DNA from: Escherichia virus TH40
Sequence record: MT446411.1
Reading direction: 5' to 3' (one strand)
DNA length: 64,000 nucleotides
The position numbers and the translations under genes were made by a program. Numbering within the stretch: the first letter of the stretch is position 1; each line of letters starts with the position of its first letter. Shown here piece after piece: positions 7,157-8,196 of this stretch. The notes under the pieces are model-generated. The model was not told the DNA's origin. It made no database searches and saw only the letters and a program-made list of their open reading frames with translations.

Positions 7157-7175
7157 TTCCATAGTACCGGATGCA

Positions 7176-7223
7176 CCACCCGCTCGGATTTCTCATACTA
7201 CCGGGCGCACCGCCCGCTCTGGA
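7176..7223. repeat. tandem direct repeat (about 24 bp x2) TACCGG(A/G)(T/C)GCACC(A/G)CCCGCTC(G/T)GGA, each forming a short GC hairpin
   Basis: Two adjacent near-identical units between the tRNA cluster and the 6734..7117 gene. Confidence 0.5.
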
Positions 7224-7358
7224 AAAACTCCGTAAAAGGTGCGCCGTTTCAGCTGTGATATAAGGGGCCATTAACAAAACATAAAGATTTATTAATGTCA
7301 GTCCTTAAACAGGGAACTTCAGTCCGACGACTTACCGGTAGCGACCCGGTTTCTTGTT

Positions 7359-7434
7359 TGGTCGAGACAGTAGGAATCGAACCTACGACCCAGGACTTAG
7401 AAGGTCCTTGCTCTTCCTTCTGAGCTATGCCTCG
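7359..7434 (-). tRNA. tRNA-Arg (anticodon UCU), CCA encoded
   Basis: Hand-folded cloverleaf: acceptor CGAGGCA/TGTCTCG, D stem GCTC/GAGC, anticodon stem AGGAC/GTCCT with loop CTTCTAA, T arm GTAGG-TTCGATT-CCTAC, discriminator A, CCA. Confidence 0.85.
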
Positions 7435-7442
7435 TGCTTGTT

Positions 7443-7567
7443 CATAGCGGGGTGGACTCGAACCACCAATATTAAGTCACTCATGCTCCAAGCATGCAGG
7501 GCACTTACCCCGGACGGAATCGAACCGCATCTACAATACCTATCGCCATGATAATTTAAAATAAGTT
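7443..7567 (-). ncRNA. tRNA-like stable RNA candidate (contains two T-arm-like hairpins, no canonical acceptor stem); position matches the T4 RNA C/RNA D species between tRNA-Ile and tRNA-Arg
   Basis: GGTGG-TTCGAGT-CCACC and GCGG-TTCGATT-CCGT hairpins on reverse strand; no 7-bp acceptor pairing could be found. Confidence 0.3.
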
Positions 7568-7641
7568 TGGTGGCCCTGGGTGGAATCGAACCACCATCCA
7601 GCGATTATGAGTCGCTCGCTTGACCGTCCAGCTACAGGGCC
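7568..7641 (-). tRNA. tRNA with CAU anticodon (Met, or Ile as in T4 convention), CCA encoded
   Basis: Hand-folded cloverleaf: acceptor GGCCCTG/CAGGGCC, anticodon stem AGCGA/TCGCT with loop CTCATAA, T arm GGTGG-TTCGATT-CCACC, discriminator A, CCA. Confidence 0.8.
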
Positions 7642-7719
7642 TTAATTCTATTATGAAAGGCTCTTTGAGGGAAGAACCTTTGGTAATAGAGGGTACTTAT
7701 TAATAATAACGCGTTTTTA

Positions 7720-8196
7720 TTAAAGCATATCAAGTGCTTTAACGTTCAGGATTTGGATTTCTTCTTCGATGATGTATAATTTCACCCACGAAACTACGCG
7801 TATAAAATCACTATCATATTCCACTGGCTCGCCCAGCAATTCCTGGAGAGAACACAATAATTCAAATTCCTGGTCATTGTCACCTTCAACCAGATTTTCA
7901 ATACAAAGTGTTTTGTTAATGAATTCAGGAGTTAATTGACCAGATTTTACACCAGATTCAATGTGTGCGATAATCAAGTCTTTAACTATGTCCCATTCTG
8001 AATTACCACATTTATTGCGGTTATTACAATGAGAGCCTTGAAAAAGTTCCAGGATATATTTGTACTGCTGGATTTCTTGTTCTTCTACACCAAATATTGT
8101 CTGGGTTTTATAGTTGTCACCATCATTTTCCAAGGTTTCAATTTCAATCACATAACCTTTAGGGATGGTCTGACCAAATTTAATATTCATAATCAA
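7720..8196 (-). CDS. hypothetical protein (158 aa)
   Basis: Reverse ORF, start overlaps upstream stop (ATGA). Confidence 0.5.
   Translation of the reverse strand: MIMNIKFGQTIPKGYVIEIETLENDGDNYKTQTIFGVEEQEIQQYKYILELFQGSHCNNRNKCGNSEWDIVKDLIIAHIESGVKSGQLTPEFINKTLCIENLVEGDNDQEFELLCSLQELLGEPVEYDSDFIRVVSWVKLYIIEEEIQILNVKALDML

What the first reader, a model, noticed from the sequence alone, without database searches (positions are those of the whole stretch)
7443..7567. 125-nt tRNA-like element between the two tRNAs with two T-arm hairpins but no acceptor stem
The interval contains two TpsiC-arm-like hairpins (GGTGG-TTCGAGT-CCACC and GCGG-TTCGATT-CCGT on the reverse strand), yet I could not build a 7-bp acceptor stem for either. 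In T4 the stable RNAs C and D sit between tRNA-Ile and tRNA-Arg, so this may be a homologous small stable RNA, or a decayed tRNA.
Basis: partly seen in the sequence, partly recalled or inferred. Interest (0 to 1): 0.45.

Follow-up and report, generated by a model that had tools for sequence, protein, structure and literature searches.

The report
Two-T-arm tRNA-like phage RNA gene
Between two phage tRNA genes lies a 108-base gene for a folded, tRNA-like RNA that carries two T-arms but no anticodon. It belongs to an undescribed family shared by T4-like and N4-like phages of enterobacteria, and its function is unknown.

Summary
The two T-arm hairpins are real. GGTTCRANTCC occurs four times in 64 kb, all at 7373-7592 on the minus strand, against 0.19 expected.

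The element (7550-7443, minus strand, 108 nt) is not a tRNA by ARAGORN or Rfam. It is not a decayed tRNA and not a homolog of T4 rnaC or rnaD; the rnaD homolog lies at 7354-7238.

It belongs to a conserved RNA family with 22 distinct sequences from three clades: T4-like, E. coli/Shigella N4-like and Klebsiella N4-like phages. On their alignment 98.3% of cells are paired, against 38-57% for slid controls, and 15 of 27 pairs show compensatory changes. G·U pairs fix the strand.

The family is unannotated in every record inspected. It is absent from Rfam, from 5,426 E. coli genomes and from plasmids.

Best reading: a tRNA-cluster-encoded small RNA excised by tRNA-processing enzymes, built as a double tRNA "elbow". 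It most likely acts as a mimic of the tRNA acceptor/T half. That function is inferred, not shown.

The parts
7443..7550 (-). Whole element: 108-nt tRNA-like RNA gene with two T-arms
   Evidence: Covariance model R1 scores it at 114 bits, E = 1e-30. Consensus structure from RNAalifold and pair counts. Parts mapped.
7544..7550 (-). Acceptor-like stem, 5' strand (CAUGGCG)
   Evidence: Pairs with 7443-7449. Five of the 7 pairs show changes on both sides across 22 homologs.
7529..7543 (-). Junction J1, AUAGGUAUU-GUAGAU. The GG and the GUAGAU are invariant. There is no D stem.
   Evidence: Column conservation in alignment A1.
7514..7528 (-). H1: first T-arm-like hairpin, GCGG-UUCGAUU-CCGU
   Evidence: Loop is U-U-C-R-A-Y-U in all 22 sequences. 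Stem pair 27:39 occurs as G-C, U-A and C-G.
7513..7513 (-). Invariant C between the H1 stem and H2. It parallels the bulged C at 7450.
   Evidence: Alignment A1. The parallel is an inference.
7497..7512 (-). H2: variable hairpin, CGGGG-UAAGUG-CCCUG. Its length and loop differ between clades.
   Evidence: Five of 6 counted pairs show compensatory changes. The window copy lacks the bulged A that the other 21 sequences have after this stem.
7482..7496 (-). H3: hairpin CAUGC-UUGGA-GCAUG with a conserved YUGGW pentaloop
   Evidence: Pairs 68:80 and 71:77 are compensatory. The loop GG is invariant.
7468..7481 (-). Junction J2, AGU-GACUUAAUAUU, with a conserved core GACUUARUA
   Evidence: Alignment A1.
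7451..7467 (-). T-arm 2: GGUGG-UUCGAGU-CCACC, a canonical 5-bp stem with a 7-nt T loop
   Evidence: Pairs 99:113 and 100:112 are compensatory. It is 18/19 identical to the T-arm of the neighbouring tRNA(CAU).
7450..7450 (-). Single bulged C between the T stem and the acceptor 3' strand. It is a C in all 22 sequences.
7443..7449 (-). Acceptor-like stem, 3' strand (CGCUAUG). It is followed by AACAAGCA, so no CCA is encoded.
7568..7641 (-). Context: upstream tRNA(CAU) with encoded CCA. A 17-nt spacer (7551-7567) separates it from the element.
   Evidence: Closest E. coli genes are annotated tRNA-Ile.
7359..7434 (-). Context: downstream tRNA-Arg(UCU) with encoded CCA. An 8-nt spacer (7435-7442) separates it from the element.
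7238..7354 (-). Context: the true homolog of T4 rnaD (species 2 RNA), directly after tRNA-Arg
   Evidence: blastn against T4 rnaD: 84.7% identity, E = 1e-30. T4 gene order.

Best explanation
Window 7550-7443 (minus strand) is a gene for a 108-nt structured small RNA of an undescribed, phage-only family.

Shown:
- A 7-bp acceptor-like stem closes the molecule and continues, across one bulged C, into a canonical T-arm.
- Inside are a second T-arm-like hairpin (H1), a variable hairpin (H2) and a hairpin with a conserved YUGGW loop (H3).
- Invariant single strands join them: a GG followed by GUAGAU on the 5' side, and GACUUARUA on the 3' side.
- There is no anticodon arm, no D stem and no encoded CCA.

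Inferred:
- The RNA is co-transcribed with tRNA(CAU) and tRNA-Arg. It is released by the host tRNA-maturation machinery: RNase P at its own 5' end, RNase P cutting at the 5' end of the next tRNA, then 3' exonucleolytic trimming.
- Each of the two T-loops is capped by one of the two invariant GG motifs, as the D loop caps the T loop in tRNA. This would give a compact "double-elbow" fold of two acceptor/T-type coaxial stacks: the outer stem with T-arm 2, and H2 with H1. In both stacks the T stem is followed by an invariant C.
- The RNA does not decode. It acts as a mimic of the acceptor/T "top half" of tRNA, binding a host factor that recognises tRNA by that half. It may titrate or recruit that factor, for example as a decoy for a tRNA-directed enzyme or defence nuclease.
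- It moves between phage lineages as a self-contained cassette.
For: The family is real and its structure is selected.
- blastn finds the interval at 95-98% identity in T4-like phages of three genera: VR5, VR25, TH15, TH22, KLB31, PEi20, PEi26 and CkP1.
- It is found at 74-80% identity in N4-like Gamaleyavirus and at about 71% in Klebsiella N4-like phages. It is unannotated, apart from overlapping ORF calls, in every listed row.
- Across 22 distinct sequences, RNAalifold gives the five-helix structure, and 15 of 27 pairs have compensatory changes.
- 98.3% of cells are paired, against 38-57% when the 3' partners are slid. The covariation score is 0.565 against 0.06-0.08. None of 500 shuffles reaches the observed value.

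Strand: 68 of 593 paired cells are G.U, so pairing would fall to 86.8% on the other strand. The RNA strand is the strand of the tRNAs.

T-loop identity of H1: the loop is UUCRAYU. One phage (U1G) has G to A at loop position 4, and position 6 is U or C. Both fit a T loop and do not fit an anticodon loop.

tRNA-cluster context: in every T4-like locus inspected the element directly follows a tRNA 3' end, or in CkP1 a tRNA 3'-end-like sequence that ARAGORN does not call, by 2-17 nt. Its order relative to tRNA-Arg differs between phages. JS98 has tRNA-Asn at the same site.

The neighbouring tRNAs encode CCA and the element does not.

No protein is shared between the T4-like and N4-like neighbourhoods.

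There is no copy in 5,426 E. coli genomes or in PLSDB plasmids. None of the pattern-selected loci from one genome per 185,579 species is a member.
Against: No transcript, processing, modification or binding data exist for this RNA, so everything beyond the secondary structure is inference.

- Single-sequence folding is unremarkable (z = -1.2).
- The family spans only three clades, so tertiary contacts cannot be tested. The GG and T-loop residues are invariant. The one suggestive pair (column 18 with column 108) is one of about 2,000 tested.
- The bulged C between the acceptor and T stems departs from the canonical 7/5 stack, and its effect on RNase P or the CCA-adding enzyme is unknown.
- The acceptor-stem sequence and the discriminator are not conserved between clades. 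This argues against one specific synthetase, but it also leaves the proposed partner undefined.
- A cellular decoy would face a large excess of real tRNA.
Confidence: 0.6

Rival explanations
1. It is a decayed tRNA pseudogene: the remains of one or two tRNA genes, drifting without function.
For: It sits in a tRNA cluster at the place where JS98 has tRNA-Asn. It keeps T-arm sequences, and T-arm 2 is 18/19 identical to the neighbouring tRNA's T-arm. No tRNA is called there.
Against: Helices are kept by compensatory changes in three clades from two unrelated phage families. The loops and junctions are invariant while the stems vary. A drifting pseudogene would not be found in unrelated phage families with its structure maintained.
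Confidence: 0.03
2. It is an ortholog, or a divergent copy, of T4 stable RNA C (species 1) or D (species 2).
For: Like rnaC it lies in the tRNA cluster of a T4-type phage and is closed by a 7-bp stem next to a 3' T-arm. It shares the octamer ACUUAAUA just 5' of that T-arm. This phage has no rnaC. With filters off, model R1 scores rnaC at 19.2 bits.
Against: rnaD is present elsewhere in the window. A blastn search with rnaC found 748 records; none of the 60 sampled rows was an element-carrying phage. R1 with default filters misses rnaC, while ordinary tRNAs score about 21 bits. The 19-bit alignment uses an internal stem (CGGAACG) that becomes a mismatch in rnaC homologs. Their real closing stem is terminal (CGRUUCG/CGUUYCG; CGGUCCG/CGGACUG in TG1). 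In rnaC, ACUUAAUA is one strand of a long covarying hairpin, whereas here it is unpaired. rnaC has a single T-arm.
Confidence: 0.06
3. It is an unusual but functional decoding tRNA. H1 would be the anticodon arm (loop UUCGAUU, anticodon CGA, serine) and H2/H3 extra variable arms.
For: There are four hairpins inside an acceptor stem, as in class II tRNAs. U33 would be present. Serine tRNAs have long variable arms.
Against: Loop position 37 would be U or C, where tRNAs almost always have a purine (established knowledge). The stem has 4 bp. The G to A change in U1G would switch the anticodon. GG...CC flanks the loop as in a T-arm. There is no D stem. H2 loops range from 4 to 11 nt. No CCA is encoded although both neighbouring tRNAs encode it. 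The Rfam tRNA model and ARAGORN both fail. No acceptor identity elements are conserved between clades.
Confidence: 0.04
4. It is a cis-acting processing or punctuation element. The tRNA-like fold would recruit RNase P and 3' processing enzymes to define the ends of neighbouring RNAs, for example the 5' end of a downstream mRNA. The excised RNA itself would have no function.
For: In PEi20, KLB31, UViG L006 and CkP1 a Shine-Dalgarno sequence and start codon follow the element within about 12-25 nt. In the N4-like phages it lies inside a long CDS-free transcript region with other tRNA-like hairpins.
Against: In the window and in VR5 it is flanked by tRNAs that are themselves RNase P substrates, so no extra signal is needed. 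The downstream genes differ between phages. A simple processing signal would not need invariant internal loops, a second T-arm and conserved junctions.
Confidence: 0.12

Closest known systems
Bacteriophage T4 rnaC (species 1 stable RNA)
   Same: It is a small RNA gene embedded in the tRNA cluster of a T4-type phage. It is closed by a 7-bp acceptor-like stem adjacent to a canonical 3' T-arm and has no anticodon arm. Its function is still unknown (PMC3014915, PMC9697503).
   Different: There is no detectable sequence homology. rnaC is 139 nt, has one T-arm and a different interior with a long covarying hairpin, has no bulged C, and lies after rnaD. The present family also occurs in N4-like podophages.
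Canonical tRNA (Rfam RF00005)
   Same: A 7-bp acceptor stem stacked on a 5-bp T stem with a UUCRANY loop, a GG motif 3' of the acceptor strand, and a position among tRNA genes on the same strand.
   Different: No anticodon arm, no D stem, a second T-arm, two extra hairpins, a bulged C between the acceptor and T stems, and no CCA. It is not detected by the tRNA model or by ARAGORN.
tRNA-like domains of tmRNA and of YrlA (bacterial Y RNA-like)
   Same: An acceptor/T-arm module with a D-loop analogue that lacks a proper D stem: tRNA mimicry without decoding (from established knowledge of these families).
   Different: No tag reading frame and no Ro-binding helix. Rfam scores are far below threshold: YrlA 14.5 bits against a gathering score of 69, and the tmRNA models hit the T loops only. 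ARAGORN finds no tmRNA.
Double T-loop modules (T-box Stem I distal end, RNase P J11/12-J12/13, ribosomal L1 stalk)
   Same: Two T-loop motifs in one RNA (from established knowledge). They suggest a structural or tRNA-elbow-related role.
   Different: Those are interdigitated pentanucleotide T-loops in internal or apical loops of larger RNAs. Here both are complete tRNA-type T-arm hairpins in a 108-nt RNA. No 3D evidence is available.

Membership tests
tRNA (RF00005 / ARAGORN) | Detected by the tRNA covariance model (at least 29 bits) or by ARAGORN | tested here: not met
   Only 7359-7434 and 7568-7641 are called. Nothing is reported in the interval even at E <= 10.
tRNA (RF00005 / ARAGORN) | A 7-bp acceptor stem contiguous with a 5-bp T stem and a 7-nt T loop | tested here: met
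   7550-7544 pairs with 7449-7443, next to T-arm 7467-7451, with one extra bulged C. The stem covaries.
tRNA (RF00005 / ARAGORN) | Anticodon arm: 5-bp stem and 7-nt loop with U33 and a purine at position 37 | tested here: not met
   H1 has a 4-bp stem and a loop with U or C at position 6. H2 loops are 4-11 nt. H3 has a pentaloop closed by a covarying pair.
tRNA (RF00005 / ARAGORN) | D arm with a 3-4 bp stem | tested here: not met
   J1 (15 nt) has an invariant GG but no stem in the consensus fold.
tRNA (RF00005 / ARAGORN) | 3' CCA and aminoacylation | not testable with these tools
   CCA is not encoded (the tail is AACAAGCA), whereas both neighbouring tRNAs encode it. Post-transcriptional addition cannot be assessed.
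T4 rnaC (species 1 RNA) | Sequence similarity to T4 rnaC | tested here: not met
   No blastn match of rnaC, or of the EcS1 rnaC, in the window. A search with rnaC found 748 records; none of the 60 sampled rows was an element-carrying phage. R1 misses rnaC with default filters.
T4 rnaC (species 1 RNA) | Shared conserved secondary structure | tested here: not met
   Only the closing stem and the 3' T-arm are common. The rnaC interior differs, and the R1 alignment to rnaC uses a stem that rnaC homologs contradict.
T4 rnaC (species 1 RNA) | Position after tRNA-Arg and rnaD | tested here: not met
   T4 order is tRNA-Arg, rnaD, rnaC. Here the element lies upstream of tRNA-Arg.
T4 rnaD (species 2 RNA) | Sequence similarity to T4 rnaD | tested here: not met
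   The rnaD homolog is at 7354-7238, not in the interval.
tmRNA | Detection by ARAGORN or the Rfam tmRNA models; a tag reading frame | tested here: not met
   ARAGORN finds no tmRNA. The Rfam tmRNA models hit the T loops only, at 8-18 bits against gathering scores of 47-84.
YrlA (Y RNA-like) | Rfam RF02553 at or above 69 bits | tested here: not met
   14.5 bits, E = 5.6, and the hit spans T-arm 2 plus part of tRNA-Arg.
T-loop structural motif | U-U-C-R-A pentanucleotide closed by a G-C pair | tested here: met
   Both loops are UUCRA(N)U between GG and CC in all 22 sequences. The 3D fold is not testable here.

The most novel reading that the evidence does not exclude
The element may be a member of a wider, unrecognised class of phage "double-elbow" tRNA mimics. 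These would be RNAs closed by an acceptor stem in which a second T-arm replaces the anticodon arm. Phages would exchange them as cassettes and use them against host tRNA-directed factors, for example as decoys for tRNA-targeting defence nucleases or as inhibitors of tRNA-processing or tRNA-modifying enzymes.

Hints: an IMG/VR scan for two T-loops 35-60 nt apart returned more than 120 loci. Of 67 distinct sites outside predicted tRNAs, 16 have a perfect 7-bp closing stem, against 4-8 at shifted control positions. Several (L210, L122, L114/L203, L096, L176) repeat the same order of parts and score 25-35 bits with R1.
Probability: 0.15. Interest if true: 0.8.

Novelty: new variant of a known kind. 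Interest (0 to 1): 0.6.

Why it matters
Phage tRNA clusters are usually read as codon-usage helpers or as spares against tRNA-cleaving defences. T4's two extra stable RNAs in that cluster have had no known function for fifty years.

Here a second, unrelated, covariation-supported tRNA-like RNA is maintained in T4-like myophages and N4-like podophages of Enterobacterales. It has an unusual two-T-arm design and cannot decode.

This shows that non-decoding tRNA mimics are a recurrent, exchangeable cargo of lytic phages. It also provides a compact, well-defined RNA of 108 nt, carried by culturable coliphages such as VR5 and G7C, on which their function can be tested. In addition it flags a gene that current annotation pipelines miss in every record inspected here.

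Tried and rejected
- Rfam at gathering score and at E <= 10 on the interval, and at E <= 0.1 on three N4-like loci: only chance-level hits (tmRNA_permuted 18 bits, RAGATH-36 15 bits, YrlA 14.5 bits).
- ARAGORN: no tRNA or tmRNA in the interval.
- Homology to T4 rnaC: rejected after comparing six divergent rnaC homologs.
- Protein coding: only a 65-aa TTG ORF on the opposite strand overlaps. The G.U pairs and compensatory stem changes argue for RNA.
- Single-sequence thermodynamics: uninformative, z = -1.2.
- Sigma-70 promoter and terminator scan: nothing useful. T4 middle and late promoters are not covered by the tool.
- Extra pairing between junctions: a 3-bp helix (columns 14-16 with 95-97) is compatible but varies on one side only. 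An all-against-all scan gave one suggestive pair, 18:108, which is not significant with three clades.
- A co-transferred partner protein: none is shared between the T4-like and N4-like neighbourhoods.
- A host or plasmid counterpart: none in the E. coli genomes, in plasmids, or among the pattern-selected loci of the species-representative genome scan.
- Literature: no description found. rnaC and rnaD are still reported as of unknown function.
- Extra members: pattern scans of IMG/VR and of metagenomes added only close relatives of the same three clades.

Full report
**Where we are.** The window is a T4-type phage closest to the VR5/TH22 group of Dhakavirus (97-98% identity around the finding). 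The tRNA genes lie on the minus strand. ARAGORN and Rfam find exactly two tRNAs: tRNA(CAU) at 7641-7568 and tRNA-Arg(UCU) at 7434-7359. Both encode their CCA. Nothing in the 133 bases between them reaches any Rfam threshold, even at E <= 10. The best hits are chance-level matches to the T loops.

**The observation.**
- The T-loop core GGTTCRANTCC occurs four times in the 64-kb window. All four lie at 7373-7592 on the minus strand: two in the tRNAs and two in the interval. The expectation from shuffles is 0.19.
CATGGCG (7550-7544) pairs with CGCTATG (7449-7443). It encloses the whole element and is separated from the 3' T stem by one bulged C at 7450.
- The unit is therefore 7550-7443, 108 nt. 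Positions 7551-7567 are a spacer after the upstream CCA.

**Relatives.**
- blastn finds the interval at 95-98% identity in T4-like phages of three genera: Dhakavirus (VR5, VR25, TH15, TH22), Kanagawavirus (PEi20, PEi26, KLB31) and Karamvirus (CkP1).
- Unexpectedly, it is also found at 74-80% identity over about 90 nt in N4-like podophages of the genus Gamaleyavirus (G7C, EC1-UPM, pSb-1, St11Ph5, U1G and others).
- It is found at about 71% identity in Klebsiella N4-like phages (Kaypoctavirus: KP8, VLCpiP4a/b, PW7, JZBo1 and others).
- In no listed row is it annotated as an RNA feature. A few records have ORF calls overlapping it.
- Pattern scans added one IMG/VR contig beyond the known phages and eight metagenome contigs, all from the same clades.
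- A scan of one genome per 185,579 bacterial and archaeal species for the conserved 5' motif gave 14 loci. None is a family member by the covariance model.
- There is no match in 5,426 complete E. coli genomes or in PLSDB plasmids.

**Structure.** I aligned 22 distinct sequences: 6 T4-like, 9 E. coli/Shigella N4-like and 7 Klebsiella N4-like. RNAalifold returns five helices:
- a 7-bp closing stem;
- H1, with 4 bp and a UUCGAUU loop;
- H2, variable in length and loop;
- H3, with 5 bp and a YUGGW pentaloop;
- T-arm 2, with 5 bp and a UUCRANU loop, with one unpaired C between it and the 3' strand of the closing stem.

The support is strong.
- Fifteen of the 27 pairs have changes on both sides. 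The closing stem reads CAUGGCG/CGCUAUG, CACGGCG/CGCUGUG, UACAGCG/CGCUGUA, UGACGGG/CCCGUUA, UGGUGGG/CCCACUA and UGGCAAG/CUUGCCA in different phages.
- On the named structure 98.3% of cells are standard pairs, against 38-57% when the 3' partners are slid by 1-3 columns. The covariation score is 0.565 against 0.06-0.08. No shuffle out of 500 reaches the observed values.
- Sixty-eight of 593 paired cells are G.U, so the RNA is read from the minus strand, like the tRNAs.
- Single-sequence folding alone is unremarkable (z = -1.2). The evidence is comparative.

**What is conserved.**
- Both seven-base loops are U-U-C-R-A-N-U flanked by GG...CC in all sequences.
- In H1 the only variation is G to A at loop position 4 (U1G) and U or C at position 6. 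This fits a T loop (R57, N59). It does not fit an anticodon loop, where it would change the anticodon and place a pyrimidine at position 37.
- Also invariant are a GG in the 5' junction (NNNGGUNNN), the following GUAGAU, the GG of the H3 loop, the core GACUUARUA before T-arm 2, and a C after each T stem.
- After T-arm 1 the sequence runs C, then C paired to an invariant G that closes H2. After T-arm 2 it runs C, then C paired to the last G of the closing stem.
- The molecule therefore looks like two acceptor/T-type coaxial stacks (outer stem with T-arm 2; H2 with H1), each with a nearby GG. This is the arrangement that caps the T loop in tRNA.
- This "double elbow" is an inference. The residues concerned are invariant, so covariation cannot test it. 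The single suggestive tertiary pair (column 18 with T-loop-2 position 6) is not significant with three clades.
- The window's copy lacks the A that the other 21 sequences have between H2 and H3. In the model that A is a bulge, so the deletion should be tolerated. The model still scores the window copy at 114 bits, against 118-130 for the others.

**It is not a tRNA.** There is no D stem and no anticodon arm. CCA is not encoded although both neighbours encode it. The acceptor sequence and the discriminator differ between clades, so no synthetase identity set is conserved.

**It is not T4 rnaC or rnaD.**
- In T4 the order on the transcript is tRNA-Ile, segB, tRNA-Arg, rnaD, rnaC.
- The window has a clear rnaD homolog directly after tRNA-Arg, at 7354-7238 (84.7% identity, E = 1e-30). 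It has no rnaC.
- rnaC and the element share a design: a 7-bp closing stem beside a 3' T-arm. They also share the octamer ACUUAAUA.
- That does not hold up as homology. A blastn search with rnaC found 748 records, and none of the 60 sampled rows was an element-carrying phage. The covariance model R1 misses rnaC with default filters, while ordinary tRNAs score about 21 bits.
- The 19-bit filters-off alignment uses an internal stem (CGGAACG) that becomes a mismatch in rnaC homologs.
- Six divergent rnaC homologs show that the true closing stem is terminal, with covariation A-U to G-C, and in TG1 U.U to U-A and C-G. They also show that ACUUAAUA is the 3' strand of a long covarying hairpin.
- The two RNAs are analogous, not demonstrably homologous.
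- The literature still lists rnaC and rnaD as RNAs of unknown function (PMC3014915, PMC9697503, PMC12685909). I found no description of the present family.

**Context and likely biogenesis.**
- In the window and VR5 the element follows tRNA(CAU) by 17 nt. In PEi20 and KLB31 it follows the CCA of a tRNA(CAU) gene by 2 nt. In UViG L006 it follows tRNA-Arg by 2 nt. In CkP1 it follows, by 2 nt, a tRNA 3'-end-like sequence that ARAGORN does not call.
- In the window it is followed after 8 nt by tRNA-Arg. In the other four it is followed by a ribosome-binding site and an ORF that differs between phages.
- JS98, a close relative, has tRNA-Asn at the same site. The element therefore behaves as a cassette of the tRNA cluster.
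- In the N4-like phages it lies in a 1.4-1.9 kb stretch without CDS, downstream of tRNA genes where these are present (the Klebsiella phages; none is called in G7C), together with other tRNA-like hairpins.
- No ORF product is shared between the T4-like and N4-like neighbourhoods, so the RNA travels alone.
- From established knowledge of T4 tRNA maturation, polycistronic precursors are matured by RNase P, 3' exonucleases and the host CCA-adding enzyme. The most economical inference is that the acceptor/T-arm module makes this RNA a substrate of the same enzymes.

**Function.** Nothing here shows what the RNA does. It has tRNA top-half features without a decoding part. It depends on no co-transferred phage protein. 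It is restricted to lytic phages of Enterobacterales and is exchanged between unrelated phage families. These points best fit an RNA that works through host tRNA-binding factors by mimicry.
- I rate "a processed, stable tRNA-like RNA of a new family" at about 0.85-0.9.
- I rate "excised by the tRNA machinery" at about 0.65.
- I rate "a decoy or recruiter for a host tRNA-directed factor" at about 0.25.
- The rivals are a pseudogene, an rnaC/rnaD ortholog, an odd decoding tRNA and a pure processing signal. They are listed with their evidence. The processing-signal idea is the only one not clearly disfavoured.

**A possible wider class.**
- Of 67 distinct sites in which neither T-arm belongs to an ARAGORN tRNA, 16 have a perfect 7-bp stem enclosing both T-arms. 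Shifted control positions give 4-8.
- Several of these repeat the order found here: acceptor stem, GG-bearing junction or D arm, T-arm, one or two hairpins (often with a UGG loop), T-arm, acceptor strand. Examples are L210, L122, L114/L203, L096, L176 and L117. They score 25-35 bits with R1.
- The set is heterogeneous and was selected by the pattern, so this is a lead, not a result.

**Verdict.** This is a real, conserved and previously unannotated structured RNA gene. It is a tRNA-like RNA of unusual two-T-arm design, analogous to T4 rnaC but of a separate family. Its specific interpretations, an rnaC/rnaD homolog or a decayed tRNA, are not supported.

Noticed in passing
window 7238-7354 (minus strand): A clear homolog of T4 rnaD (species 2 RNA; 84.7% identity, E = 1e-30) lies directly after tRNA-Arg. 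It ends in GCGCACC followed by UUUU. It is not annotated in the VR5 reference record. No rnaC homolog exists anywhere in the 64-kb window.
   Followed up: partly
window 7568-7641 (minus strand): The gene ARAGORN calls tRNA-Met(CAT) is closest (80.5% over its full length) to E. coli genes annotated tRNA-Ile. The tRNA(CAT) gene at the corresponding position in KLB31 is annotated tRNA-Ile2. It is probably a lysidine-dependent AUA-reading tRNA-Ile2.
   Followed up: partly
window 7497/7496 junction (minus strand): The window's copy of the element lacks one A (CCCUAGCAUGC becomes CCCUGCAUGC) that all 21 other distinct homologs have, including the 98.5%-identical VR5, VR25, TH15 and TH22. In the model that A is a bulge.
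   Followed up: partly
window 7450-7468 and 7578-7596: T-arm 2 of the element, with its flanking bases, is 18/19 identical to the T-arm of the neighbouring tRNA(CAU). This may reflect common origin or gene conversion.
   Followed up: no
window 7160-7185 and 7194-7219: Two 26-nt direct repeats (85% identical, G+C-rich) lie downstream of the rnaD homolog and before the next ORF.
   Followed up: no
window 7647-7665 / 7672-7690: A 19-nt inverted repeat (84% complementary, 6-nt loop) lies between the upstream ORF (7720-8196, minus strand) and the first tRNA. It may be a processing or termination hairpin at the start of the tRNA cluster.
   Followed up: no
L013 904-1125 (Klebsiella phage VLCpiP4a) and L019 1901-2003 (KP8): Rfam's permuted-tmRNA model (RF04321) reaches 47.8 bits, just above its gathering score of 47, right after the tRNA genes of an N4-like Klebsiella phage. 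It reaches 33 bits in KP8.
   Followed up: no
L004 2465-4357 (phage G7C), especially 2871-2969: G7C has about 1.9 kb without annotated CDS and without any ARAGORN tRNA. Just upstream of the element, a long-range helix (GTGAGAAC.../...GTTCTCAC) encloses another T-arm-like hairpin (TTAGG-TTCAACT-CCTAA). The region may be an array of non-canonical tRNA-like RNAs.
   Followed up: partly
L210 (around 8267), L122 355-452, L114 2386-2485, L203 13260-13360, L096 824-923, L176 (around 1247) (IMG/VR contigs): Unrelated viral contigs carry RNAs of about 90-107 nt with the same order of parts: closing 7-bp stem, GG junction or D arm, T-arm, hairpin(s), T-arm. Perfect closing stems occur at 16 of 67 sites, against 4-8 of 67 at shifted control positions.
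   Followed up: partly
L002 1701-1775 (phage JS98): The close relative JS98 has tRNA-Asn exactly where this phage has the element, between tRNA(CAU) and tRNA-Arg. In UViG L006 the element follows tRNA-Arg instead. This shows cassette-like turnover within the tRNA cluster.
   Followed up: partly
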